The notes beneath the pieces were generated by a model. The model did no database searches, had not been told where the DNA came from, and saw only the letters and a list, made by a program, of their open reading frames with translations. The position numbers were made by a program, and so were the translations under genes. Shown here in pieces: positions 7,890 to 64,000 of a stretch of DNA of 64,000 nucleotides. The stretch is taken from the IMG/VR virus record IMGVR_UViG_3300045988_174992; one strand, 5' to 3'. The DNA is from a virus. Within the stretch, counting starts at the first letter, position 1. Each line of letters begins with the position of its first letter.

Positions 7890-9710
7890 ATGTTGATTAC
7901 AGAAAATCAGAACAAAGCAATGTGGACTAAGATGCTTACTGAGCAGTTCCATGTTGAAGATAATGAAAAGTTGAATTGGGTATCTGATTATGCCCAAACA
8001 CATGCAATGTTTGAAGCTAACCTTGGTGCTCATGCAGTAGCAACACCAACAGGTGTTCAGCCTGTAACAGTTCCAGCTGGTGCTCCTGGTGGTGGTCCTG
8101 GTGTTGGCCCTATGTATGCTACTCCAGCTAATACTCTTGGTATGGGTAACATTGCTGCTCCTAGTGGTCCTCACGGTGCTGATGGTCGTGGTAGCTCTAC
8201 AGCTGGTATCAATCCTGGTGCATTCTTCAATCAGACTCCTGGTAGTGGTGATATTCCAGTTTCTACACTTCCTATGGCTTTGAACGTAGCTTTGATGACT
8301 ATTGGTCTTGAGCTTGTTCCAACTATTCCTACTAAGGGTCCTTGGGCTCTCTTGAGTTATATGGACTTCCCTTATGCTGGTGGTAAGATGGGTCGTAGAA
8401 ATGAAATTGCTCATCTTGATGGTGTTGGTGAAGGTCGTGAGAACAAGCCAATGTACTTCAAGGTATTGCTCCCTGGTACTGCAATTGCTAAGCTCCGTAA
8501 AGTTGAGAAGCTTGTTGAAGATGCTCAGGTAGAATTCACAACAGCTGCTGGTACTGTAAGAGGTATTTTCAAGGGCTTCGGTCGTATGGATGGTGGTCTT
8601 CTTGTACAGGTTATCGATTCAAAAAATGCCGCTGCAGATAAGGATATCTCAATTAATGAGGCATTCTCTGGCGCCGATGGTCTTACCGCATTAAAGGTAG
8701 CAGGTGAGGATGTTATTGCTAAACTTGACGGAGATGGTGAAAAACTAGCTAAGCCAGATTTCGCTCAGACAATGGTTGACTTCATCGATGGTTTCGCTAA
8801 CTTCGCTACTGGTAAGAAGGAACCTATGACACGTGCTGAGAATGAAACTGGTACTGGTAACACTATCGGTCTTCGTCTATTCTCTAAGTGGATTACAGTA
8901 GGTAGTTATGAAGTAACAGGTGCCGTAACTCGTCAGCAACTTCAGGATCTTCCATTGTACGGTGTTAATGCTGTTTCTAAGATTATGGAAGCAATGCAGA
9001 ACGAAATCACCCAGTCTATCAACGCTCGTATTCTTGAGCATGTATTCCGACTTGGTGTTACTAACGCATTGAATTTGAAGAACTATCAAGGTGTTGACTT
9101 GAACCTCTACATGGGTACAGCTGATAAGGACTTCGCTCAGCTTCCTATGAATATCAAGGAGTACAAAGATATCTTCGGTACCGATCTTCGTGCTACTTGG
9201 GGTAATGTCAAGAATTCAGAAGTAAACACTTCTGCTGAGAATCTTCACACTCGTCAACGTCGTATTGCTTCTCGTGTACTTGCAGCATCTAATCTCATCC
9301 AGGTAACTAACAGACGTGGTCCAGCTACTTGGGTTGTTACAAATACTCAGATTGTTACAGCACTTCAAGATTGCGCTCAGTATGTAGTTGCTCCAATGCA
9401 GAATACATTTACACAGTCTGTAACTGCTAACCTCTACAAAGCTGGTACACTTGCAGGTCTTCAGGTTTATGTAGATCCTTACATGGATTGGGATGATACT
9501 CGTATTTGTGTTGGTCGTAAGGGTTCTGGTAACGAACCAGGTGTAGTATTCATGCCTTATATCCTTGCAGACCAAATGCAGCTCATCGCTGAAGGTACAA
9601 TGGCACCTAAGATGCTCGTAAATAGCCGTTACGCTATTGCTGATATCGGTTTCTTCCCAGAAAAAAGTTATTACACTTTCACTGTTTCTTCAGAATTCGG
9701 TTTGCTCTAA
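7890..9710 (+). CDS. major capsid protein, T4 gp23-like
   Basis: 606 aa; blocks resembling gp23 (ATWVVTNTQIVTALQD, LQVYVDPYM, VVFMPYIL); Gly/Pro-rich N-terminal propeptide; strong terminator downstream. Confidence 0.85.
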   Translation: MLITENQNKAMWTKMLTEQFHVEDNEKLNWVSDYAQTHAMFEANLGAHAVATPTGVQPVTVPAGAPGGGPGVGPMYATPANTLGMGNIAAPSGPHGADGRGSSTAGINPGAFFNQTPGSGDIPVSTLPMALNVALMTIGLELVPTIPTKGPWALLSYMDFPYAGGKMGRRNEIAHLDGVGEGRENKPMYFKVLLPGTAIAKLRKVEKLVEDAQVEFTTAAGTVRGIFKGFGRMDGGLLVQVIDSKNAAADKDISINEAFSGADGLTALKVAGEDVIAKLDGDGEKLAKPDFAQTMVDFIDGFANFATGKKEPMTRAENETGTGNTIGLRLFSKWITVGSYEVTGAVTRQQLQDLPLYGVNAVSKIMEAMQNEITQSINARILEHVFRLGVTNALNLKNYQGVDLNLYMGTADKDFAQLPMNIKEYKDIFGTDLRATWGNVKNSEVNTSAENLHTRQRRIASRVLAASNLIQVTNRRGPATWVVTNTQIVTALQDCAQYVVAPMQNTFTQSVTANLYKAGTLAGLQVYVDPYMDWDDTRICVGRKGSGNEPGVVFMPYILADQMQLIAEGTMAPKMLVNSRYAIADIGFFPEKSYYTFTVSSEFGLL

Positions 9711-13964: not shown

Positions 13965-14648
13965 ATGCAGAAAATAACAGAAAATAAGCCTAACATTTAT
14001 TGGGGTGGATCAGTTGCTGCAACTACAGGTGATTTTGCTTCTCGTGGCCATGATGGCAAGACACATCTTCCTCATTTAATGAATACCAAGGCTGGTGCTA
14101 ATCGTCATGATCCAATGAACCGTGCTGTGTTTGAGGTATCATTCACACTTCCTACACAGTTGCAAGGTATGTTTGGTGCTGATGCTGCTACCATGACAGA
14201 ACAAGTTACAGATGTTGCTGGTTTGGATGCATTACAGAAGACAGTACAAGCTGGTTCACAGAAATTCTTTGGTGTTGATGTGAGCTTCTTGAACCCAACA
14301 TTAGATAACACTTATGCCGAAGTTACAGTAAACTTCAATTTGAACATTCGTTCTAAGTCAGATGCTTGGTTGCTTCGTATCTTCAAGGCTTGGGAAAAAC
14401 TTGGTTATGACCTTGCTGATGGTACTCGTACATTGAAGGCTGACTATGTTGCCGATGTAATGAGAATTGCAGAAGCTAATCGTGATGGTACTATTTACCG
14501 TGCTTATGTATTCCATGACACAATGATTACAAATGTAACAGGTCTTGATACATTAAACTATACTGATAATGAACCTGCAAAATTAAGTGTCACATTTAGA
14601 AGTGACTTCTGGGATGAGGACATGAGCACTGGTGAATCAAGCAACTAG
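13965..14648 (+). CDS. tail tube protein (gp19-like, by position)
   Basis: 227-aa ORF immediately after the sheath gene; ends at a bidirectional terminator; call is positional. Confidence 0.5.
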   Translation: MQKITENKPNIYWGGSVAATTGDFASRGHDGKTHLPHLMNTKAGANRHDPMNRAVFEVSFTLPTQLQGMFGADAATMTEQVTDVAGLDALQKTVQAGSQKFFGVDVSFLNPTLDNTYAEVTVNFNLNIRSKSDAWLLRIFKAWEKLGYDLADGTRTLKADYVADVMRIAEANRDGTIYRAYVFHDTMITNVTGLDTLNYTDNEPAKLSVTFRSDFWDEDMSTGESSN

Positions 14649-14673
14649 AAAAATCAATCCTGAAACAATAAAA

Positions 14674-14710
14674 ATGGTCGAGAGATATAATTTATCATCC
14701 CGACCATTTT
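14674..14710. terminator. bidirectional terminator between convergent tube and VWA genes
   Basis: ATGGTCG...CGACCAT stem flanked by AAAAA and TTTT. Confidence 0.55.
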
Positions 14711-14742
14711 CCGTTTCCTGTGTGACCCAGGCGCCATCCTGG
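14709..14742 (+). repeat. GC-rich hairpin repeat family, copy A (partial: core only)
   Basis: TTCCGTTTCCTGTGTGACCCAGGCGCCATCCTGG; 11 nt from the stop of the VWA gene. Confidence 0.8.
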
Positions 14743-14753
14743 TAAATTATAAT

Positions 14754-16604
14754 TTATTTTAACTTATCATAATTTTTTCTAACAATATTAGAAAATTTAA
14801 TCAATGCTTCTTTCATTCCTGATTTTGTATCAGATACACCTACCCAATTATCTCCATATAACTGATAATTGATTGATTTATATTCTTTTTCATTATTTTT
14901 GTACTGATAATCTGTTGAATTGATGCAAAGCAATCCAAATAATACATTTTGGGCTTTCCAATCATTGATAACTCTGATTAATGATGTTTTACTACTCAAA
15001 TACAAACTATCTGTAATATTCAAAAAGAATATTTTCTTATTTGTTTGTAGTTTAACATCTTTCAATATAGTATCATAAGACTTTGCATCATTTTGACTCA
15101 TTTGATGTAATCTATTTCCTAACTTATAAGGATTCTTATCTTTAGGTGTAATATATTTTACAATATTTTCACCATGTCCATAGATATATAAATCAATTCC
15201 ATCATAATTCTTCATTGCTTCATAAAAAATACAAGCAAGTTTTGATGCAACATTTCTAGCAGAATATTCACAGTTTTGAGGAAAACTCATTGATGCGGAT
15301 TCATCTATTGATATTACAAATGTATATTTAGGATCTGGGCTTTCTGATTTCTTCATAACCTTTCTATGATATACACAGTTTACTCCTTGGATTGCTTGTA
15401 CAAGATGTGAAGATATAAGTTGTCCGTTTCTATGGAATTTATCATCTTCTAATTCAATTTTCTTATTGTTAGGAATGATTATTTTCTTAGCAATATTTAT
15501 TTCTTCTGTTAGTTTAGAAACCATTTTCTTGTAAGCAACTACATCAGAACTATTTGGTTTTACAGCACCTATCTCTTTTGTTGCTCCTTTAAACAATTCA
15601 TCTAGCTTATTATCTGGTTTACCAAGAGTATCATTTTCTTGATTTACTGATTCTTTTGCCTTGTTGAATTTTTGTGATATCACATTATTTGATTTATTTC
15701 TTCCTTCACTTGTATTAGGAGAAAACAATCCATTTTGACCACAATTCTTGTCTTGGTTTGGATTACCTTCAGTTGATGAATTTCCTATCATACCAAGATT
15801 TGGCTTAGATAATTTTGAATTGAGATCATCTAACTTTACATATTTCTTGATTATTTCCATGGTATCAAGACATGCAACAACAGTATTTTTTGTAGGACTA
15901 TATTTGAATTGGCTTGGATCTTCAATCTTTACAATAACATTTTCATATATCTCATCTAGCATTGGACCAAATTCATCAATCCATTCTTTAGGAAATCTAT
16001 TTGAAAGATTTGAATTTCTAACCATATACAATACCATGAATTGCACAATATCTATCTTACTGTTAGAAAGAACAAGCTTCTTTACAGAATTGATGAATTT
16101 ATCTTCAGAAAAGTAATGTGACAACACATGGTTCAAGAAATACATCCATTGTGGTTTTCTGACACCTAACATTTCTTCAATACATTCATCTTCATATAAA
16201 TTATGAAGCCAATGAGCAATAGGATATTTTACCATTTTCAAATCATAGTTTTTGAAATCAGTAAAAGCACAATGGCATGCTTCATGACAAGCTAATCCCA
16301 TTTCAATATCCATACCATCATAAGCATCTTTATGCTCCTTCATTGGATTCATTCCAACAACAATATGTTTACCATCTGTATATGATGAATCAGAATTTTC
16401 TTTAGCAACTAACTGTGCGGAATTTTCTGTTACTTGATTGGAAACATAAAGTAAAGCTTGTGACATCAATGCTGCTGATGTCTTATAAGCTTCAATTTCC
16501 ATCTCTTTATATATGAACTTTGAAGATGGATTTATGCCAAACCTGTTAATAGTATAAGTTGGTCGGTTAGAAAACCATTTTGTATGTTTGAGAGTATATG
16601 TCAT
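14754..16604 (-). CDS. metallopeptidase-like + von Willebrand A domain protein (CobT/DUF2201-like)
   Basis: HExxH (HEACH) in the N-terminal half; MIDAS DxSxS (IDESASMS) in the C-terminal half; 616 aa. Confidence 0.6.
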   Translation of the reverse strand: MTYTLKHTKWFSNRPTYTINRFGINPSSKFIYKEMEIEAYKTSAALMSQALLYVSNQVTENSAQLVAKENSDSSYTDGKHIVVGMNPMKEHKDAYDGMDIEMGLACHEACHCAFTDFKNYDLKMVKYPIAHWLHNLYEDECIEEMLGVRKPQWMYFLNHVLSHYFSEDKFINSVKKLVLSNSKIDIVQFMVLYMVRNSNLSNRFPKEWIDEFGPMLDEIYENVIVKIEDPSQFKYSPTKNTVVACLDTMEIIKKYVKLDDLNSKLSKPNLGMIGNSSTEGNPNQDKNCGQNGLFSPNTSEGRNKSNNVISQKFNKAKESVNQENDTLGKPDNKLDELFKGATKEIGAVKPNSSDVVAYKKMVSKLTEEINIAKKIIIPNNKKIELEDDKFHRNGQLISSHLVQAIQGVNCVYHRKVMKKSESPDPKYTFVISIDESASMSFPQNCEYSARNVASKLACIFYEAMKNYDGIDLYIYGHGENIVKYITPKDKNPYKLGNRLHQMSQNDAKSYDTILKDVKLQTNKKIFFLNITDSLYLSSKTSLIRVINDWKAQNVLFGLLCINSTDYQYKNNEKEYKSINYQLYGDNWVGVSDTKSGMKEALIKFSNIVRKNYDKLK

Positions 16605-18245: not shown

Positions 18246-18755
18246 TTAGTTTAACAATTTAACATATAATGATTCTTTTGTTTTCAATACCTTGTTAGGT
18301 TCTCTTGTCTTAGACATTTGACGTCTAAATTTGCTAGTTCCAGTATCATTAGTAATTTTTGTCCAACCATTACATTCCGGAAAACCTTCATCTCCTGCGG
18401 TACCACCATCAAAACTAACTAGCATATTGCAATCATTTGATGTTTCATTACACCAATTATAGAAATTTTTAAGGTTAAATTCATCAGAATTATAAATACC
18501 AGAAGCATTTTCATTAAGGAACATCTTATAAGGAGGATCCAAATAAATAGTAGAATTAGTTGGAATATATAATGAGTCATAAGAAGCATTGTTAAATTGA
18601 ACATTATATTTCTTAACCAATTCATTACACTTCATAATGATTTCTTTCTTGTTATCTGGGTGCATTCCAGGAACAACAGGCATACAAGCTGCATTGAATC
18701 CTTTCTTACCATATCTGACTAGTCCATTAAAATTAAATGCAAGCAATGTCATCAA
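18246..18755 (-). CDS. Dam-type (D12 class) N6-adenine DNA methyltransferase, N-terminally truncated fragment
   Basis: FNGLVRYGKKGFNA block and DPPY motif IV present. AdoMet-binding FxGxG region (~100 aa) missing. Frame is closed 15 codons upstream. Track start is TTG. Confidence 0.65.
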   Translation of the reverse strand: MMTLLAFNFNGLVRYGKKGFNAACMPVVPGMHPDNKKEIIMKCNELVKKYNVQFNNASYDSLYIPTNSTIYLDPPYKMFLNENASGIYNSDEFNLKNFYNWCNETSNDCNMLVSFDGGTAGDEGFPECNGWTKITNDTGTSKFRRQMSKTREPNKVLKTKESLYVKLLN

Positions 18756-18840: not shown

Positions 18841-18870
18841 AATATAGTATCAATTCTAAAAATTTCAAAA
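18841..18870 (-). promoter_or_regulatory. phage consensus promoter
   Basis: AATATAGTATCAATTCTAAAAATTTCAAAA upstream of the Dam fragment operon. Confidence 0.55.
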
Positions 18871-18937
18871 CAAATTTAAAAAATTTCTATGAAATAATGA
18901 ACATCTATTTCAGTTCTGTTCAAGAACTAAAGTTATG

Positions 18938-19031
18938 CACATAGGGAGCGGAAAATTTTCTCAGGTTATTAATTATACTCCTAAGTATTCTTCCGCTCCC
19001 TGTGTGACCCAGGCACATTCCTGGAGAATCC
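18938..19031 (+). repeat. GC-rich hairpin repeat family, copy B (complete)
   Basis: CACATAGGGAGCGGAA-37 nt-TTCCGCTCCCTGTGTG (16-bp stem), then ACCCAGGCACATTCCTGGAGAATCC; 14 nt from the stop of the gp52-like gene. Confidence 0.85.
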
Positions 19032-19045
19032 TATTTTATATTATC

Positions 19046-20476
19046 TTATTTTACATAATTTTTAAATAATTGAAAATCATCTTTTATTAAAGATCGTTTC
19101 AATAATTCCAAGTCATTGATATACATTTGCTTTTCTGTTGTATTTTTGATATATTCAAGATGCTTCTTTATCTCTTCATTCTGCTTCAAAAGTTCATCTC
19201 TTTCTTCTATAGTTACTTTTGACATGGGTGTTGCAAGCAATGCCATTGGCAAGTGTTGTGCATCCATATCAGGTTTGATATCCACTTTACTTCTGTTACG
19301 AATCTTAAGCTTACCTTTACATACAAGTTCAATGAACTTTACTAATTCTGAATTGTTCTTGTATTTATCTTCAAGTATCTTTACAAGCTTCTTCTTTCTC
19401 TCAACATAAACAGTCAATCTCCAATTTACAAAATATTTGATAACCTCATATCTGTCTTTGAAATATTTGAGCTTGCCATTCTCATCAAGCAACCAAAGCA
19501 AATCATCTGGAAGTTTCTTAATGAGCTTGAACTTATTAGCTAATCTCTTACCTGACCTATCTGATTTGATTTCTTTTGCAAGTTGACCTTTGAAGAATTG
19601 TACTTCATAATGCACATTACCATCCTCTGACAAATCTTTATAGTCTTTGATTTCTTGTTTGTCACAAAGTCTATTCAGTAATTTTTCAAATTCAACATAA
19701 GTAGTATCAGATGGCAAATTAGTGATTGTCATCAAGTCTTTTGCTTGATTTGTCTTCCATTCTCCATAGCAATACCATTGGCCAGATTCTAACTTCCAAT
19801 TGTCTTGTGGAATATCTCTCAAATAAGGCCTTACAACTGTCTTAAACTGTTCTATACCTTTCTTACTTTTGAGAATCTCTAAACAGCAATCAAGTACATC
19901 TACTGGATTCCAAGCATTGCTATGGAAAGAATATCCATTAGCAATACCCATAGTTGTATTAGAAAGAACTGTAGGTACAATAGGAAGGTAATGTTCTGGC
20001 TCAACATAGTCACCTTCTTCAAATACATATTTCAACAGGTCATAATCTGCCTTGTATACTAAGTCTGCATACTTTGACTTTCTGATATATAGGTATCGAG
20101 GTGCTCCAGCTTCTGGACTGCGGAGATATCCTCCTTGGCCTTCAATTTCTAGTGGGTTGTAAAAATTATAAAAAGCTTTAGCCAATGTACATGTGGTACC
20201 AACAAGGGAAGCGTCACCATGTGCATAGAGAGATATCTTCATTGTGTCACCAACAAGAGCAAGCAACTTCGATGTTGATCCATTCTTCAATGAACCTTCA
20301 AACATTGCATGTACAATCTTTCTTGCACCTGGCTTAAACCCATCGCATATAGAGGGGATAGCACGATCCCCTACTGTTGCAAGTGAATAATTCAAATATT
20401 CTACATTGAGAAAGTCAGTAATTGACTTGTTGATATCTTTCTTTACAACTACTTTATTTTCTGATTTCTTTACCAT
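19046..20476 (-). CDS. type II DNA topoisomerase, GyrA-like cleavage subunit (T4 gp52-like)
   Basis: 476 aa; active-site region EAGAPRYLYI; directly downstream of the GyrB-like subunit gene. Confidence 0.8.
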   Translation of the reverse strand: MVKKSENKVVVKKDINKSITDFLNVEYLNYSLATVGDRAIPSICDGFKPGARKIVHAMFEGSLKNGSTSKLLALVGDTMKISLYAHGDASLVGTTCTLAKAFYNFYNPLEIEGQGGYLRSPEAGAPRYLYIRKSKYADLVYKADYDLLKYVFEEGDYVEPEHYLPIVPTVLSNTTMGIANGYSFHSNAWNPVDVLDCCLEILKSKKGIEQFKTVVRPYLRDIPQDNWKLESGQWYCYGEWKTNQAKDLMTITNLPSDTTYVEFEKLLNRLCDKQEIKDYKDLSEDGNVHYEVQFFKGQLAKEIKSDRSGKRLANKFKLIKKLPDDLLWLLDENGKLKYFKDRYEVIKYFVNWRLTVYVERKKKLVKILEDKYKNNSELVKFIELVCKGKLKIRNRSKVDIKPDMDAQHLPMALLATPMSKVTIEERDELLKQNEEIKKHLEYIKNTTEKQMYINDLELLKRSLIKDDFQLFKNYVK

Positions 20477-26180: not shown

Positions 26181-26200
26181 AATTTCTTATAATATTCTCT

Positions 26201-26297
26201 AGATTCCTCTGTTAAGCGCCTGGGTCACACAGGGAGCGGAAAAATATACTTCAGTATGTTCTATAAGCTAAGACATTTTTAACGTTCCTGTGTGAAT
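26201..26297 (-). repeat. GC-rich hairpin repeat family, copy C (inverted relative to A/B)
   Basis: Plus strand GCGCCTGGGTCACACAGGGAGCGGAAAAATATACTTCAGTATGTTCTATAA...CCTGTGTG; 8 nt from the stop of the AAA ATPase gene. Confidence 0.85.
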
Positions 26298-26302
26298 GTT
26301 TT

Positions 26303-27526
26303 TTAGTTCAATGTCATCATAAGTTGTTTTACAGGTTTGACATCATCATCATTGAATTTGTTGCAAACCACAAAATTCACCGCATCTAATATATCAAATC
26401 CATCAGCAATCATTTCACCAATAGCAATATTCTCTCTTGTAGAAACAGGAAAATTCACTACACCTTTCTTATTTTCTTGCCTCATTGCATTTGCAAACTT
26501 TACAATGATAGCAGCATCATCTTCTGATATCTTACATCTGTTCTTCAATACTTCTATCTCATTTCTGACTGGCATGTAATCCACTTTCAATGGTAGAAAT
26601 CTGTTCATCAAAGCAGCATCAATTTCTTGAGTACCACTATATTCCGAACCAATATTAGCAGTAGCAATGAATACACAATCTGGATGTACTTTTACTGAGC
26701 GTGGACCTTCTGAATCTGCTATAGCTAATGGTAGTTCTCTACGAGAATCTAAACAAGGAAACAGAATATTGTTTGTCATCAATGGAGCTCTTGAAAGCTC
26801 ATCAAGCAATATTACACCCGGTTTCTGAACATCATAAACAAACTTTGCATAATCAAATGTAGAACTACCATCCTTAATACGATGGCATCCGAGCAAGTCA
26901 GTTAATGGATCTTGCATAGCACCCATATCATGTACTTCACAATTTATTCCAAGTTGCTTACAAGCCATCAATATCAATTCTGTTTTACCAGTACCGGTAG
27001 GTCCAATCAATAATGTTGGTTTCTTTCTCATGATGTTTCTTACAAGATATTTCCAGTTCTTGCTTTCAACATAGAAACCAGTATTTTCTATATTTGGACA
27101 ATCAGGCAATGAATCAATAAAATTTTCAGAATTTATAATCTTCTTTATTGTTCCATCTTCTGATTTTGTTGTTACAACTTCTGCTTGTTCATCATTAAGA
27201 TCATAATCCACAGTTGGATCAAACTGACATTTCTTACTGAACAAATCATTCAAATCATCATCAGAAGCAATATTTGGAATTCCTTGAAAACCAAAAGTAA
27301 ACTTTTTAGAATCAAAAATATATTTATCAGTATAATATATTACTGCTTTATTTTTGTTTCTTTCTATGAAATCTATTTGCTTCTTATTATATCCTTTCTT
27401 ATTCTCTTCAATCAATTTCGTATTTCCACGAAATTTTGCATCCAATACAGAATTCTGTCCTCGATAAGGATAAAATATTCCTAATTCAATTGTAAAGTAT
27501 AATCTTGGATTTCTCATTTCTTTCAA
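26303..27526 (-). CDS. MoxR/CobS-like AAA+ ATPase
   Basis: Walker A GPTGTGKTE, Walker B ILLDELSRA; 407 aa. Confidence 0.75.
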   Translation of the reverse strand: MKEMRNPRLYFTIELGIFYPYRGQNSVLDAKFRGNTKLIEENKKGYNKKQIDFIERNKNKAVIYYTDKYIFDSKKFTFGFQGIPNIASDDDLNDLFSKKCQFDPTVDYDLNDEQAEVVTTKSEDGTIKKIINSENFIDSLPDCPNIENTGFYVESKNWKYLVRNIMRKKPTLLIGPTGTGKTELILMACKQLGINCEVHDMGAMQDPLTDLLGCHRIKDGSSTFDYAKFVYDVQKPGVILLDELSRAPLMTNNILFPCLDSRRELPLAIADSEGPRSVKVHPDCVFIATANIGSEYSGTQEIDAALMNRFLPLKVDYMPVRNEIEVLKNRCKISEDDAAIIVKFANAMRQENKKGVVNFPVSTRENIAIGEMIADGFDILDAVNFVVCNKFNDDDVKPVKQLMMTLN

Positions 27527-54671: not shown

Positions 54672-55979
54672 TTATTCAGCTGCCTTAATATTTATTCGTT
54701 CTTTTATTCTCTTCAGAATCTGAACTGTTGGTTCAATCTGCTCAATAATCTCATCCATAGGCTTGTATGCCATAGGAGACTCATCTAATGTTGACTTGTT
54801 GACAGAAGTTGAACAAACATCCTTCATTTCTTCGACAAATTCATCCATAGAAAGATTTGCCTTAGCAGCAGAACGTGACATCAATCGACCGGCACCATGA
54901 GGAGCAGTACAATTCCATTCAGCATTTCCTTTACCTACACAAATCAATACACCATCTCGCATATTGATAGGAATCACAAGTTCACGTCCATAAGCGGCAT
55001 TGACAGATCCTTTACGAATAATCATATCGTCAAAGTCAATGTAGTTATGCATTGTATTGATGACACGTGCCATAGAAGCACCTTTGACAATCTTAGTATA
55101 GATTTCTGTCATCTTATCCGAAATAAGCAAATGATTGTACTTGGCATAAGTCTGTGCAATTACCATATCAGTAAGATAGCCAATCAGATTCTTACCATTC
55201 AGATAGCCTGTTGGAACAGATGATACAAAGTCTTCCTTTGCATTCTTAATTCGCTCATTCCATTCTGACTTAGGATACATATCCTTTATCTTTTCAATAT
55301 GCTTTGCCCATTCAGAACTATCAACATGATAAGGCTTGTTTGCAACATTCATCCAGTACTTTGCTACCTTCAAACCAAAGTTGCGAGAACCACAATGTAT
55401 CATTATATATCCATTACCTTCGTCATCAGTATCATAAGACAAGAAATGATTGCCACCACCAGTAGTACCTAATGACTTCCAAAAAGTACCTTCATCCATA
55501 CCAATTCGGTTCAGCATATCGGAAATGTACTTTTCATTTACATTTACATTGTTTACAAAATTGGTTGTAGCAACAGCTCTGTCAATAGCAGTATTGCACA
55601 TCTTGTAAAACATCTTCTCATCAGCAATCTTCTTATCATAAATAGTGAATCCAGTAGGAATATCCTTCTTCCATCGATGTTCAAGCAATGCATAAGATTC
55701 CTCTGGACATGGCTTTGACATCTTGATGCAAGTTACCTGACAACCAATATCAACACCTACATGGCTTGGATTTACCATTGGATTATCCTTATCAATAGTA
55801 GAAGAGAAGCCAATTGTTATCGACTGCCCCAAGTGGATATCCGGCATTATTCGTATTTTCTGATCCTTGAATGCAGGACAGTCACAGATACTGTAAACCA
55901 TCTTCAATGCATCTTCTTCAACTGTCTTTGCAAAAATCTTGCAATCCTTATTGTACTTTCCAATTATATTGTATTCCAT
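54672..55979 (-). CDS. rtcB: RtcB-type RNA ligase (3'-phosphate/5'-OH)
   Basis: Motifs MPDIHLGQS, GGGNHFLS, APHGAGR; 435 aa. Confidence 0.85.
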   Translation of the reverse strand: MEYNIIGKYNKDCKIFAKTVEEDALKMVYSICDCPAFKDQKIRIMPDIHLGQSITIGFSSTIDKDNPMVNPSHVGVDIGCQVTCIKMSKPCPEESYALLEHRWKKDIPTGFTIYDKKIADEKMFYKMCNTAIDRAVATTNFVNNVNVNEKYISDMLNRIGMDEGTFWKSLGTTGGGNHFLSYDTDDEGNGYIMIHCGSRNFGLKVAKYWMNVANKPYHVDSSEWAKHIEKIKDMYPKSEWNERIKNAKEDFVSSVPTGYLNGKNLIGYLTDMVIAQTYAKYNHLLISDKMTEIYTKIVKGASMARVINTMHNYIDFDDMIIRKGSVNAAYGRELVIPINMRDGVLICVGKGNAEWNCTAPHGAGRLMSRSAAKANLSMDEFVEEMKDVCSTSVNKSTLDESPMAYKPMDEIIEQIEPTVQILKRIKERINIKAAE

Positions 55980-55980
55980 G

Positions 55981-56256
55981 TTAATTCAAATCTAATTTTG
56001 TGAAACCTGTAATGACAACATGCAATTCTGCTACTTTACCTTCATTTTCTTGTCCATGTGAATAGGTTCGTTCATTCAACTTCTTGGTTTCTTCATCTTC
56101 TAATACATCTGTCCAAGTATCTAATGTATTTTCAGTAACATTACCAAACATGTTACACCACATCAGTTTTGTACCTTCATAAAAACCAGAAATTCCAAAC
56201 ATCGTGGTATAGCTAACTTTATAGTTGACTAATGCTTTTCTTCTCAATAATGACAT
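55981..56256 (-). CDS. hypothetical protein (91 aa)
   Basis: ORF immediately upstream of rtcB and downstream of GC-hairpin repeat copy D. Confidence 0.5.
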   Translation of the reverse strand: MSLLRRKALVNYKVSYTTMFGISGFYEGTKLMWCNMFGNVTENTLDTWTDVLEDEETKKLNERTYSHGQENEGKVAELHVVITGFTKLDLN

Positions 56257-56282
56257 ATCTATTTACTAATTATTAATTAATT

Positions 56283-56380
56283 CTAGGATTCACCTGCTAA
56301 GCGCCTGGATCACACAGGAAGCGGAAAAATATACTTCAGTATGTTCTATAAAAGGGACTCATTTGAGAGTCCCTGTGTGA
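56283..56380 (-). repeat. GC-rich hairpin repeat family, copy D (inverted relative to A/B)
   Basis: Plus strand GCGCCTGGATCACACAGGAAGCGGAAAAATATACTTCAGTATGTTCTATAA...CCCTGTGTG; 3 nt from the stop of 56383-57180. Confidence 0.85.
56350..56373 (-). terminator. terminator-like hairpin inside GC-hairpin repeat copy D
   Basis: GGGACTC-ATTTGA-GAGTCCC with U4 in minus sense. Confidence 0.5.
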
Positions 56381-56382
56381 AT

Positions 56383-57180
56383 TTATTCCTCATTCAACTT
56401 GATGAATCTGATCTGGGTGAGGATAAACTTACCTTCATTTGTCTTTGCAATCTCCTTAAGCTTCTTGTCTACTTCTGGACGAGTTTCAGGAGTATTAGGA
56501 AGAGGTTCTGTCATCACCTTGATGAATTCACCTTTGCGAACTCCATCGGCTTCATCTTCTGAAACATTCTTCTTAATTACAACCAACTGAGTCTTGTCCT
56601 TTGTATCCATAACTGAAGTAAGAATCTTACCGTAAGCTGCTTCCTTGATGAGATTGTTACGGAGAATTCTGAGCTGCTGTTCTTCTGAAGAAAATGAATA
56701 CTCCTTATTGATTCTATAAAGGTTATCAACATTCTTGTGGCATGTATCTTCAAGTTCCTTAGCAAATTCCTTGTTGTTGATAATCATTGCAACAAACTCA
56801 TAGTACTTGAGAACTTTAGTACTTCTTTCATCAAGGTTGTTGATTCTTACATCACCATAAGAACTGATGTTCAAACGGAAATCCCACACCTTTTTATTGG
56901 TATCCCAATTGTATTCATAAGAAGGATAGATATCTAATTCATAGAAGCTGTTGTTATCTTCTGGTTTGAAAGTTACATGTCGATCAGTAGCAAGGTCAAC
57001 ATGGTACTCATCAATGTTGAACTTCTTCAAAATATCATTCACATCATTGATGTAGTTAGTAACAGCACTTGTATATTTCTCTGCTCCAACCTTGGTCAAT
57101 TCATTAATTTCATTCAAACGATTGTCAATTGACTCAACTGTTGTATACTTAGCTTTAACTTCTGCGTAGTTCATAATCAT
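56383..57180 (-). CDS. hypothetical protein (265 aa), MIM-start
   Basis: Starts ATGATTATGAAC after promoter 57225-57254. Confidence 0.6.
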   Translation of the reverse strand: MIMNYAEVKAKYTTVESIDNRLNEINELTKVGAEKYTSAVTNYINDVNDILKKFNIDEYHVDLATDRHVTFKPEDNNSFYELDIYPSYEYNWDTNKKVWDFRLNISSYGDVRINNLDERSTKVLKYYEFVAMIINNKEFAKELEDTCHKNVDNLYRINKEYSFSSEEQQLRILRNNLIKEAAYGKILTSVMDTKDKTQLVVIKKNVSEDEADGVRKGEFIKVMTEPLPNTPETRPEVDKKLKEIAKTNEGKFILTQIRFIKLNEE

Positions 57181-62729: not shown

Positions 62730-62782
62730 CAAATAATCTAACTTTTAGAAAATTTTTATGATATTTCTATTTTTATAAATAA

Positions 62783-62812
62783 TTGAAATTAATTTATATA
62801 AAATACTATATT
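62783..62812 (+). promoter_or_regulatory. phage consensus promoter (plus orientation) upstream of tnpB
   Basis: TTGAAATTAATTTATATAAAATACTATATT, 32 nt before the tnpB ATG. Confidence 0.5.
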
Positions 62813-62843
62813 AAATTATAAGATATAAATTTATTCCTAATAT

Positions 62844-64000
62844 ATGAAACTTAAGCTAACACAACAAATTATCATAGGGCAGAAGCATAAGAATTATGCT
62901 TCACTTGATATACTGTGTTGGCTTTCTAAGAATCTTTATAACCAAGCTTTGTATCAGATAAGACAGCAATATAGTAAAGACAAGACTTATCTTGGTTATT
63001 CTAAGCTATATAGACTATTATATGATACAAAGCAACCAGATTATTTTGCTTTACCATATACTCAATGTAGCCAGCAAATACTACGTTTAGTTGATAAAAC
63101 ATATACTTCATTCTTTAAAGGAATAAAGTCAGCTAAGAATAAAGGAAAGAAAGTCAGACTTCCTAAGTATAAAGATAAAGAAAATGGAAGGTATGTATTT
63201 GTATATACCAGTCAATGTATCAAGGTAAAGGATGGCATTCTAAGACTTAAAGTGAACAAGACTGATTTCATTTACTTTAATTGTGACAAGGAAGATGTAT
63301 GCCAAGTAAGAATAGTACCTAAAGGAAATCATATAGTAGTAGAAATAATATATCAAGTAGAATATGAACTGAAGAAAGATAATGGAAATTATGCTAGCAT
63401 AGATCTTGGAATTGACAATATAGTTACTTTAGCTTCTAACTCAGCTCAATCCGTTCTTTATAATGGAAGACCATTGAAAGCAATAAATCACTTTTACAAC
63501 AAGAGAAAAGCTGAGTTGCAATCTAAGGTAAAGACTAAGTCAACTAAGAGAATAAAGCGTTTGAATGGTAAGAGAAACAGAAAGGTAAAAGACTTCATGC
63601 ATAAGCTAAGTCATGCCATAGTATGTTACATGGAATCAAACAACATAAATACATTGATTGTAGGAAAGAATGTTGGTTGGAAAGACAGTATCAAGCTAGG
63701 GCATGTTGTAAATCAAAACTTTGTTTCAATACCATACAATATGCTAATACAGATGCTAGAGTATAAGTGTAAGCTAAAAGGTATCACATTCATTGTGGTA
63801 AATGAAGCATATACTTCAAAGTGTAGTTTCATGGACAATGAAAATATTTGCAAGCACAAAGTATATGCTGGATCTAGAATAAGAAGAGGATTGTTTGTAA
63901 CAAAGAATGGACTTAGACTAAATGCAGATATAAATGGAGCTTTGAATATAATGGTACTAGGTTGTACTAAGATAAATGTAAAACGTGATGCTCTAGTAAT
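62844..64000 (+). CDS. tnpB: TnpB-type (IS200/IS605 OrfB) RNA-guided endonuclease, 3' end outside window
   Basis: Own translation; open frame from ATG 62844 to the window edge (absent from the track because it is unterminated). RuvC triad contexts IDLGIDN, VNEAYTSKCS, NADINGALNI. No tnpA nearby. Confidence 0.85.
   Translation, partial: MKLKLTQQIIIGQKHKNYASLDILCWLSKNLYNQALYQIRQQYSKDKTYLGYSKLYRLLYDTKQPDYFALPYTQCSQQILRLVDKTYTSFFKGIKSAKNKGKKVRLPKYKDKENGRYVFVYTSQCIKVKDGILRLKVNKTDFIYFNCDKEDVCQVRIVPKGNHIVVEIIYQVEYELKKDNGNYASIDLGIDNIVTLASNSAQSVLYNGRPLKAINHFYNKRKAELQSKVKTKSTKRIKRLNGKRNRKVKDFMHKLSHAIVCYMESNNINTLIVGKNVGWKDSIKLGHVVNQNFVSIPYNMLIQMLEYKCKLKGITFIVVNEAYTSKCSFMDNENICKHKVYAGSRIRRGLFVTKNGLRLNADINGALNIMVLGCTKINVKRDALV

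What the first reader, a model, noticed from the sequence alone, without database searches (positions are those of the whole stretch)
18938..19031. Family of GC-rich hairpin repeats, four copies, each abutting a minus-strand stop codon in either orientation
The core TTCCGCYYCCTGTGTGAYCCAGGCRC is about 65 percent GC in a very AT-rich genome. It occurs at 14709-14734 and 18991-19016 on the plus strand, and as its reverse complement at 26216-26241 and 56301-56326. In copies B, C and D the core pairs with an upstream CACA(C/T)AGG(G/A)... arm to form a long hairpin; copy B has a 16-bp stem and a 37-nt loop. The core is followed by CCAGG-N6-CCTGG or a related sequence, then G(A/T/G)GAATC(C)T. All four copies lie 3-14 nt from the stop codon of a minus-strand gene: the VWA protein, topoisomerase gp52-like, the AAA ATPase and ORF 56383-57180. 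A and B face one way and C and D the other, so the conserved unit behaves as a DNA-level element or an orientation-independent structure. Copy B has a U-G wobble only if read from the plus strand. Several explanations fit. The copies could be REP/PATE-like miniature elements derived from IS200/IS605 ends, given that a tnpB gene sits at 62844. They could be RNA processing or stability hairpins like the T7 RNase III sites. They could be binding sites for a phage protein, or a novel small RNA.
Basis: seen in the sequence. Interest (0 to 1): 0.7.

Follow-up and report, generated by a model that had tools for sequence, protein, structure and literature searches.

The report
Conserved GC-rich gene-end hairpins, gut phage
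The four GC-rich repeats are real members of a roughly 100-base hairpin family that sits just after stop codons at about 11 places per genome in a group of uncultured human-gut jumbo phages; they most likely act as transcription-terminator modules, and one arm is unexplainedly invariant.

Summary
All four copies are at the stated coordinates; none are expected by chance. They are the only non-coding GC-rich islands in the 64-kb window.

Each copy is about 104 nt, and the family has over 100 distinct copies. They lie at about 11 orthologous loci per genome in a clade of 170-295 kb, 30%-GC, T4-like gut phages. No Rfam family matches.

The element is never found between divergent genes and always abuts a stop codon. 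In a complete 294-kb genome, 9 of 11 copies have the invariant arm on the mRNA strand of the gene that ends there.
- the hairpin is followed by a U-rich tract;
- about 80% of copies fold better;
- at 5 loci a near-consensus TTGAAA-N16/17-TATATT promoter follows.

A related phage carries a sequence-unrelated GC hairpin family at the orthologous site. A distant relative has an ordinary terminator there.

My best reading is terminator, or terminator-promoter, stem-loop cassettes akin to the PeSLs of T4-type phages. The IS200/IS605 and tnpB idea is not supported.

Still unexplained are the 26-nt invariant arm, the fixed length, and an attenuator-like set of alternative pairings.

The parts
14652..14756 (+). 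Copy A, a divergent subtype. The core is at 14709-14734 and the CCAGG-N6-CCTGG mini-hairpin at 14727-14742. The usual AT-rich loop is replaced by a strong hairpin flanked by A- and T-runs (14670-14710), which looks like a bidirectional terminator. The copy lies between convergent genes 13965-14648 (+) and 14754-16604 (-).
   Evidence: The covariance model scores it 42.6 bits. GAAAC/GTTTC pairing gives compensatory changes relative to the main type.
18935..19038 (+). Copy B. The 5' arm is at 18938-18953, a 37-nt loop follows, the invariant core is at 18991-19016, and CCAGG-N6-CCTGG is at 19009-19024. Its 3' side lies 14-16 nt from the stop of the gp52-like topoisomerase gene (19046-20476, -). 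The gene's mRNA therefore reads the reverse complement of the element.
   Evidence: -40.8 kcal/mol on +, -41.8 on -; z about -6.3 to -6.6. One search scores it 100.3 bits; context is.
26194..26297 (-). Copy C, with its core at 26216-26241. It lies in the same sense as the flanking genes: 5-9 nt after the AAA-ATPase stop (26303) and 13-22 nt before the start of the 88-aa ORF (26180).
   Evidence: 109.7 bits. It is orthologous in 8 genomes.
56279..56382 (-). Copy D, with its core at 56301-56326 (one C-to-T change) and an inner hairpin GGGACTC-N6-GAGTCCC. It lies in the same sense as the flanking genes, 3-4 nt after the stop of ORF 56383-57180 and about 30 nt before ORF 55981-56256. The RtcB gene follows.
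   Evidence: 93.2 bits. It is orthologous in 6 genomes, and the core has decayed in two of them.
18841..18868 (-). A sigma-70-like promoter, TTGAAA-16-TATATT, on the gene strand downstream of copy B. Together with B it forms a stem-loop plus promoter cassette ahead of ORF 18246-18755.
   Evidence: 10 of 12 matches to the TTGACA/TATAAT consensus; 0 mismatches to TTGAAA/TATATT, 67 nt after the hairpin.
18896..18936 (+). A 39-40 nt accessory repeat, here called the H-unit, containing the hairpin AGTTCT-GTTCA-AGAACT. It abuts the 5' end of copy B. Its copy number varies from 0 to 3 between genomes at this and other loci.

Best explanation
The repeats are the stem-loop part of a family of gene-end regulatory cassettes in a T4-like jumbo phage. 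Each is about 100 nt.
1. stop codon;
2. 0-15 nt;
3. a small GC hairpin (CCAGG-N6-CCUGG or CAGG-UUCU-CCUG);
4. a long GC-rich hairpin whose first arm is the invariant sequence GYGCCUGGGUCACACAGGGAGCGGAA, closing a loop of about 40 nt that is AT-rich;
5. a U-rich tract;
6. at several loci, an early-type TTGAAA-N16/17-TATATT promoter for the next gene.

They most likely stop or attenuate transcription, and leave a protective 3' hairpin, at operon boundaries and convergent junctions. As dispersed 100-nt homologies they also mark places where small indels occur. This is the same concept as the PeSL terminator/promoter cassettes of T4-type phages.

Shown here: family membership, positions, strand asymmetries, the U-tract, the promoters, and replacement at the orthologous site. 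Inferred: terminator activity itself, and any role in recombination.
For: Distribution and novelty:
- More than 100 distinct copies occur at about 11 orthologous loci per genome in 8 UViGs and in many human-gut contigs.
- Rfam gives no hit even at E<=10.

Position:
- In about 150 placements the element is essentially never between divergent genes (the single such hit is a doubtful family member) and always lies next to a stop codon.
- The 3' side meets a converging stop at 0-60 nt in about 119 of 150 placements.
- 9 of 11 copies in the complete genome OBAD01000001.1 have the invariant arm first in the sense of the gene that ends there.

Strand asymmetry:
- The 5' flank is 56-90% A at positions -62 to -56, which gives a U-tract 1 nt after the hairpin on the reverse strand.
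- The reverse strand folds better in 93 of 117 copies for the hairpin and 92 of 117 for the tail.
- A.C mismatches on the forward strand, which are G.U on the reverse strand, outnumber forward wobbles 20 to 9.
- CCTAG tail variants pair only on the reverse strand.

Promoters: a TTGAAA-N16/17-TAT(A/C/T)(A/T)T promoter with 0-1 mismatch lies 13-67 nt after the hairpin at 5 loci.

Stem support: compensatory changes at stem pairs 12-65 and 14-63 (and the A-type).

Replacement at the orthologous topoisomerase locus:
- A phage with 88% topoisomerase identity carries a sequence-unrelated 26-bp GC hairpin family. It has the same architecture and a following promoter, and is found at 5 loci, all with the conserved arm first in gene sense.
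- A relative with 53% identity has an ordinary intrinsic terminator there.

Phage type: Gp23-like capsid, gp21-like protease and T4 baseplate domains.

Indels lie at the element boundary. The PeSL definition comes from PMC2839356 and PMC4122927.
Against: - A 40-nt loop is atypical for an intrinsic terminator, and the terminator scan does not call these sites.
- Copy B, which is correctly oriented for its gene, lacks a clean U-run because an H-unit abuts it.
- Copies C and D face the wrong way, so their U-tract would act on antisense transcripts.
- With only about 13 independent loci, the orientation bias (10 to 3) is not statistically robust.
- Only 5 loci have the promoter. At two loci the next gene starts 33-57 nt after the hairpin, so some read-through is required.
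- Covariation is weak, because one arm is invariant.
- A plain terminator does not explain a 26-nt invariant arm plus tail and an almost indel-free length across old paralogues.
- Ordinary short terminators are plentiful in the same genome.
Confidence: 0.5

Rival explanations
1. Conditional terminator or attenuator. The invariant arm would be a recognition site on the RNA, analogous to a RAT sequence, or part of a translation-coupled switch. On the reverse strand three mutually exclusive hairpins follow the stop codon:
- 1:2, CCAGG with CCUGG;
- 2:3, the invariant GC-g-CCUG-GGUCACA-CAGG-ga-GC;
- 3:4, the long terminator stem.
A phage protein that binds 2:3, or a ribosome at the stop codon covering region 1, would favour the 2:3 hairpin, which ties up part of the terminator stem's first arm, and allow read-through into the next gene.
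For: - RNAalifold picks the invariant mini-hairpin on both strands.
- The only variable core position (Y24) stays paired with G43 as C-G or U-G on the reverse strand.
- The divergent copy in L046 keeps CCTG-N7-CAGG with a different loop.
- Without the second arm, 81% of copies pair the first arm with upstream sequence.
- Region 1 lies 6-13 nt from the stop codon at most loci.
- The asymmetry of an invariant first arm and a variable second arm is what a RAT/terminator overlap predicts, and it recurs in family 2.
- Some downstream genes start only 33-57 nt after the hairpin, so read-through is needed.
Against: - Everything decisive lies in invariant columns, so covariation cannot test it.
- Shuffling the upstream tail gives z of about 0.
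- No CAT_RBD, ANTAR or other RNA-binding antiterminator domain was found among the 79 window ORFs.
- The modules follow full-length genes rather than promoters.
- C and D are inverted.
- The convergent loci make regulated read-through pointless.
Confidence: 0.17
2. RNA processing and stability sites. The long, imperfect hairpins would be cut by RNase III or by a phage endoribonuclease, as at the T7 R sites. Cutting would leave a stable 3' hairpin on the upstream message and separate polycistronic mRNAs.
For: - Stems are 11-18 bp plus an inner stem in family 1, and 26 bp and perfect in family 2 (-70.8 kcal/mol).
- There are about 11 conserved sites between genes, comparable with the roughly 10 T7 sites (own knowledge).
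- The hairpin works as a structure in either orientation.
- C and D sit within co-directional gene runs with no U-tract on the sense strand.
- RtcB and RNA-ligase genes are present.
Against: - No RNase III or Cas6-like gene was found in the window.
- The conserved U-tract and following promoters point to termination rather than cleavage.
- The sequence invariance of one arm is not a known RNase III requirement.
- There are no transcript data.
Confidence: 0.13
3. A DNA-level site. The invariant 26 bp, with a partner half-site at a fixed distance, would be bound or cut by a phage protein. Candidate roles include a recombination or shuffling hotspot, a nick site as in T5 or phiKMV, a primosome or replication signal, or a nucleoid-organising site.
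For: - The core is invariant whichever way it faces relative to genes.
- There is almost no length change: one indel in 49 distinct copies.
- In copy A the inner terminator would end transcripts in both directions before the outer stem is complete, so the outer pairing is hard to use as RNA.
- Indels cluster at the element's 5' edge: H-units at 0-3 copies, a 116-aa cassette, and the tnpB cassette beside one copy.
- The PeSL authors also speculated about a DNA-binding protein for their stem-loops.
Against: - G.U-type asymmetries favour an RNA fold on one strand.
- Placement is strictly next to stop codons.
- There is no two-domain polarity along the genome, which argues against a Ter-like fork trap.
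- No candidate protein was identified.
Confidence: 0.1
4. Miniature mobile DNA: REP, REPIN, PATE or MITE-like elements derived from IS200/IS605 ends or mobilised by a Y1 transposase. A variant of this idea treats them as stand-alone TnpB guide (omega) RNAs.
For: - Two inverted arms around a spacer resemble a REPIN (PMC3337134).
- The sequence is lineage-specific, with family 1 and family 2 differing.
- A tnpB gene lies in the window.
- One divergent copy lies about 110 nt downstream of tnpB in a single genome.
Against: - tnpB is absent from 5 of 8 repeat-bearing genomes, and its flanks share nothing with the core.
- The covariance model finds no hit at the other tnpB loci.
- No Y1_Tnp domain was found in the window.
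- Every locus examined is orthologous across genomes, with no empty sites, no target duplications and no recent identical copies.
- Only about 11 copies occur per genome.
- No copies occur in bacterial genomes other than contigs that look like mis-binned phage.
Confidence: 0.05

Closest known systems
PeSL (promoter-early stem-loop) cassettes of T4-type phages (Arbiol et al. 2010, PMC2839356; Comeau et al. 2014, PMC4122927)
   Same: - Both are dispersed, lineage-specific intergenic cassettes in T4-like myoviruses.
- Both have a GC-rich stem-loop after the upstream stop codon, an AT/U-rich stretch, then a sigma-70-like promoter for the next gene.
- Both are associated with small indels.
   Different: - The stem-loop here is far larger: about 100 nt with a 40-nt loop and an extra small hairpin.
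- One arm plus 10 nt is invariant over 26 nt.
- Only 5 of about 13 loci carry the promoter.
- There are about 11 copies spread over the whole genome rather than dense arrays in hyperplastic regions.
- Two loci are inverted.
- Mini-circles and recombination were not tested.
Intrinsic (Rho-independent) transcription terminators
   Same: A GC-rich hairpin is followed by a U-rich tract on the strand of the gene that ends there. The elements sit at operon ends and convergent junctions. A distant relative has an ordinary terminator at the orthologous site.
   Different: - The loop is about 40 nt against the usual 3-8.
- Paralogues share a conserved sequence.
- An additional upstream hairpin is conserved.
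- Some copies lack the U-run or face the other way.
REP/REPIN elements with RAYT transposases
   Same: Both are extragenic and both consist of two inverted conserved arms around a spacer, forming a long hairpin. Both are lineage-specific, long-lived and mostly vertically inherited.
   Different: - No RAYT gene was found.
- The copy number is very low.
- Only one arm is conserved.
- Placement is strictly next to stop codons.
- No GTAG tag is seen, and a CGTC only inconsistently.
- The elements are in a phage genome.
RAT/terminator modules of BglG/LicT-type antiterminators, and classical attenuators
   Same: A conserved RNA of about 26-30 nt overlaps the first arm of a terminator. It can form a small alternative hairpin that is mutually exclusive with the terminator. 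There are several copies per genome.
   Different: - These modules lie after full-length genes, not in promoter-proximal leaders.
- No cognate protein is known.
- The alternative fold is unsupported by covariation.
RNase III processing sites of phage T7 (R sites)
   Same: Both comprise about ten related hairpins between genes of one phage. Both leave a 3' hairpin on the messages.
   Different: The T7 sites all share one orientation, have a characteristic internal bubble and have no U-tract. No cleavage evidence exists here.

Membership tests
PeSL-like terminator/promoter cassette | Intergenic position, between an upstream stop codon and the next gene, in a T4-type phage | tested here: met
   All loci abut a stop codon. 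Gp23, gp21-like protease and T4 baseplate domains are present.
PeSL-like terminator/promoter cassette | GC-rich stem-loop followed by a sigma-70-like early promoter | tested here: inconclusive
   The stem-loop is always present. A TTGAAA-N16/17-TATATT promoter with 0-1 mismatch lies 13-67 nt downstream at 5 of about 13 loci only.
PeSL-like terminator/promoter cassette | Demonstrated terminator and promoter activity, and recombination between copies (mini-circles) | not testable with these tools
   Only indirect evidence exists: indels at element edges.
Intrinsic terminator | Stable GC-rich hairpin immediately followed by a U-tract on the transcribed strand | tested here: met
   On the reverse strand, U frequency is 0.56-0.90 over 7 nt starting 1 nt after the stem. 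Hairpin energies are -21 to -42 kcal/mol. This strand is the gene strand at 9 of 11 loci. The loop length is atypical.
IS200/IS605-derived element (PATE) or TnpB omega RNA | Sequence similarity to the ends or 3' flank of the resident tnpB element, and co-occurrence with it | tested here: not met
   There is no similarity. The covariance model finds nothing at 6 of 7 tnpB loci. tnpB is present in 3 of 8 genomes.
REP/REPIN | Cognate RAYT (Y1 transposase) gene in the genome | tested here: inconclusive
   No Y1_Tnp hit was found among the 79 window ORFs. About 78% of the genome was not scanned.
REP/REPIN | High copy number, with evidence of dissemination (non-orthologous or polymorphic insertions) | tested here: not met
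   There are about 11 copies per 294 kb. Loci are orthologous in all genomes compared.
Known RNA families (Rfam 15) | Covariance-model match | tested here: not met
   There were no hits at gathering score in the window. Nothing overlapped the elements at E<=10 in 10 loci.
RAT/antiterminator module | Conserved RNA hairpin overlapping the terminator's first arm, plus a cognate RNA-binding antiterminator | tested here: inconclusive
   The overlapping mini-hairpin exists but is invariant. No CAT_RBD or ANTAR domain was found in the window.
Replication fork-trap (Ter-like) sites | Two opposed orientation domains along the genome | tested here: not met
   The orientation order along OBAD01000001.1 is - - - - - + + - - - -.

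The most novel reading that the evidence does not exclude
The elements would be a new class of conditional phage terminators. The 26-nt invariant arm, with its built-in mini-hairpin, would be the binding site of an unidentified phage RNA-binding regulator, or a sensor of ribosome occupancy at the adjacent stop codon. It would switch about 11 gene-end terminators on or off together, giving genome-wide temporal control. Lineage-specific families (family 1 and family 2) would co-evolve with their factor.
Probability: 0.15. Interest if true: 0.7.

Novelty: new variant of a known kind. Interest (0 to 1): 0.42.

Why it matters
Gene regulation in uncultured gut jumbo phages is essentially unknown. 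A conserved set of about 11 gene-end modules per genome would give a direct handle on their operon boundaries. It would also provide a covariance model for annotating related metagenomic phages.

If the invariant arm proves to be a protein or ribosome sensor, it would be an example of coordinated, sequence-specific control of termination.

If the elements are simply strong terminators kept alike by gene conversion, they still extend the PeSL concept to a distant, AT-rich branch of T4-like phages.

Tried and rejected
- **Known RNA families.** Rfam at gathering score and at E<=10, and a tRNA/tmRNA scan, found nothing.
- **Known phage.** Megablast of 13 kb against INPHARED found no near relative.
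- **tnpB link.** I fetched seven tnpB loci, aligned both flanks and searched them with the covariance model. Only one coincidental neighbouring copy turned up.
- **Promoter inside the loop (TTAAAA-18-TATACT).** The scan does not call it. It would fire antisense into the converging gene at most loci, and the element is essentially never in divergent regions. Rejected.
- **Inversion between B and C.** The shared 5' flank in L021 first suggested it. That flank turned out to be the separate H-unit repeat, and gene order is collinear.
- **Modular shuffling inferred from mixed flanks (L001 versus L035).** The difference is only in H-unit copy number, so I make no strong recombination claim.
- **Ter-like polarity.** Rejected.
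- **Hammerhead, ANTAR, tRNA-like, CsrA-site and CRESS-Rep nonanucleotide resemblances.** I considered these from memory. None fits the defining spacing or motifs, and none was pursued.
- **Viral-contig scan with the family-2 arm.** It was swamped by GC-rich phages, though it still yielded four loci of the right genome.
- **Covariation test of the long stem.** It is weak because one arm is invariant.
- **Antiterminator test by shuffling the upstream tail.** No signal.

Full report
**1. Observation**

The 26-nt core occurs exactly where stated: 14709 (+), 18991 (+), 26216 (-) and 56301 (-). No match occurred in 100 shuffles. Reading the four regions and aligning them confirms the following:
- the upstream CACA(C/T)AGG arm in B, C and D;
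- the 16-bp stem and 37-nt loop of B;
- the CCAGG-N6-CCTGG or related tail;
- the GAAT(C) motif.

All four fold far better than shuffles on either strand, except C. They are the only non-coding GC-rich islands in a window of about 30% GC. Ordinary terminators in the same window are short-loop hairpins of a different kind. A covariance model built later finds these four copies and no others in the window.

**2. The family**

The core pattern recovers 47 copies in eight 167-294 kb viral contigs from one IMG metagenome. Relaxed patterns recover further copies there, in human-gut assemblies, and in contigs binned as "uncultured Romboutsia" MAGs.

The window's own genome is not among them. Its closest relative is UViG 167932, with 99% topoisomerase identity.

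The phage is T4-like. It has a Gp23-type capsid protein, a gp21-type protease, a T4 baseplate domain, a topoisomerase II pair, an NAD ligase, RtcB and a sigma-70 region-2 protein. Its capsid protein is closest, at 31-38% identity, to Sphingomonas phage PAU and the Lak megaphages.

Forty-nine distinct copies align over 105 columns with a single indel. The alignment shows:
- the 26-nt core, a GAA nine bases further on, and TATAC in the loop are invariant or nearly so;
- the partner arm and the loop differ by 30-40% between paralogues;
- orthologous copies differ by only 1-3 bases.

Rfam has nothing, even at E<=10.

**3. Context**

With a simple ORF caller, about 150 placements fall into three classes:
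- antisense to both neighbours, 65 placements;
- between convergent genes, 40;
- in the same sense as both neighbours, 26. These are only loci C and D and a variant of C.

Essentially none lie between divergent genes, which argues against a promoter. The element always sits hard against a stop codon, and the remaining 13-116 nt of spacer lies on its other side.

In the complete 294-kb genome the 11 copies read - - - - - + + - - - -, while the gene on their left is always on the + strand. Nine copies therefore present the invariant arm first to the mRNA of the gene that ends there. C and D are the two exceptions. This order also rules out a Ter-like fork trap.

Because orthologues are not independent, only about 13 loci count. 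The 10-to-3 bias is suggestive rather than significant.

**4. Which strand**

- **U-tract.** Positions -62 to -56 on the 5' side are 56-90% A. On the reverse strand this is a U-tract starting one base after the stem.
- **Folding.** The reverse strand folds better in 93 of 117 copies for the hairpin and 92 of 117 for the tail.
- **Wobble pattern.** Forward A.C mismatches, which are G.U on the reverse strand, outnumber forward wobbles 20 to 9. The common CCTAG tail variant pairs with CCAGG only on the reverse strand.
- **Promoters.** At five loci a near-perfect TTGAAA-N16/17-TATATT promoter lies 13-67 nt beyond the U-tract on that strand. The promoter at 18868-18841 next to copy B is one of them.

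The stem itself has limited covariation. Only pair 12-65 changes on both sides in the main type. The divergent A subtype adds compensatory changes at 12-65 and 14-63 (GAAAC with GTTTC).

**5. Relatives at the same site**

- A phage with 88% topoisomerase identity carries a sequence-unrelated GC hairpin downstream of the topoisomerase gene. It has a 26-bp perfect stem (-70.8 kcal/mol), a 35-nt AT-rich loop, an upstream small GC segment and a following TTGAAA-17-TATATT promoter.
- That genome has at least five such "family 2" loci. All have the conserved arm first in gene sense, and the second arm is variably truncated.
- The family-1 model hits them weakly on the minus strand.
- A relative with 53% identity has an ordinary intrinsic terminator at this position.

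The site therefore calls for a terminator-type hairpin, and the sequence is lineage-specific.

**6. Mobility and tnpB**

The tnpB gene (OrfB_IS605 plus a Cas12f-type TNB domain) belongs to a cassette with its own promoter. The evidence against a link to the repeats is:
- the cassette sits in four different contexts;
- it is found in only three of the eight genomes;
- its 3' flank shows no similarity to the core;
- the one model hit near tnpB (L046) is a divergent copy at a neighbouring gene end in a single genome;
- loci D and C are occupied in every genome compared, with slow decay of the core in two genomes;
- no Y1 transposase domain was found in the window.

What does vary is material at the element's 5' edge:
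- a 39-nt H-unit present in 0-3 tandem copies;
- a 116-aa gene cassette at locus C.

An apparent shuffling of flanks turned out to be H-unit copy-number variation, so I do not claim proven recombination between copies.

**7. Interpretation**

The best-supported reading is a family of gene-end stem-loop cassettes that terminate or attenuate transcription. At some loci they are coupled to an early promoter. This is conceptually the PeSLs of T4-type phages. I put this at about 0.5.

Several things do not fit a plain terminator:
- the 40-nt loop;
- the inverted C and D copies;
- the missing U-run at B;
- above all, the 26-nt invariant arm and the fixed length.

The invariant arm contains a mini-hairpin (CCUG-N7-CAGG flanked by GC..GC). 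RNAalifold selects it on both strands. It is mutually exclusive with both the small upstream hairpin and the long stem. On the reverse strand this gives an attenuator-like 1:2, 2:3, 3:4 layout starting 6-13 nt after the stop codon.

This layout suggests conditional termination through a binding protein or through ribosome occupancy. It cannot be tested by covariation, and a shuffle test of the tail was null.

RNase III-type processing, a DNA-level binding or nick site, and REPIN-like mobility remain as lesser rivals. The tnpB-derived origin is effectively excluded.

**8. Verdict**

This is a real and previously undescribed repeat family. It is most simply a large, sequence-constrained variant of phage terminator/promoter cassettes. 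Interest is moderate. It would rise if transcript mapping showed regulated read-through.

Noticed in passing
window 18896-18936; L295 2740-2860; L001/L259/L035 (alignment A9): A separate 39-40 nt repeat, the H-unit AATGAACATCTCTTTCAGTTCTGTTCAAGAACTAAAGTT, carries its own small hairpin. It sits directly against the 5' end of the GC-rich element at several loci. Its tandem copy number varies from 0 to 3 between closely related genomes.
   Followed up: partly
window 62770-64000 (+); L045-L047: The tnpB gene is 404 aa in relatives and has OrfB_IS605 and Cas12f-like TNB domains. It travels as a cassette with its own TTGAAA-N17-TATATT promoter and an outward-facing promoter-like sequence in its 3' flank. 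The cassette occupies four different genomic contexts. No GC-rich structured omega-RNA-like segment is obvious downstream.
   Followed up: partly
L423, L424, L426, L427 versus window 26297-26303: In four of eight related genomes a 116-aa gene cassette is inserted between the AAA-ATPase stop codon and element C. The ATPase C-terminus is altered at the junction.
   Followed up: partly
L294 2607-2720; L311 1260-1370; L349 4460-4560; L405 about 510-610 and about 9190-9290: The related phage UViG_3300001525_000092 has a sequence-unrelated family of very stable GC hairpins. The conserved arm is GGCGCCGCTGGCGGCC and stems reach 26 bp. They sit at gene ends, including the site orthologous to copy B.
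   Followed up: partly
window 54672-55979 (-), just downstream of copy D; another ORF in 1-42000: An RtcB-type RNA ligase gene follows copy D after one small ORF. A second ORF matches the RNA_ligase family. The window also holds ThyX, a dCMP deaminase, a sigma-70 region-2 protein and a second ORF with a DNA_pol_B match, which suggests a split polymerase.
   Followed up: no
L139, L147, L149, L153 etc. (CALFLM01, CALESE01 contigs): Many contigs of two GTDB "uncultured Romboutsia" MAGs carry the element together with the same phage genes. They look like phage contigs binned by their low GC. The capsid protein's nearest isolates infect Bacteroidota or Sphingomonas, so the host is unresolved.
   Followed up: no
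L046 4326-4425: This divergent copy has the core TTCCATTCCCTGACCGCTCCAGGCGC. It keeps the CCTG-N7-CAGG mini-hairpin but has a different loop, and it has an inner terminator like copy A. It is the only natural variant that informs on the mini-hairpin.
   Followed up: partly
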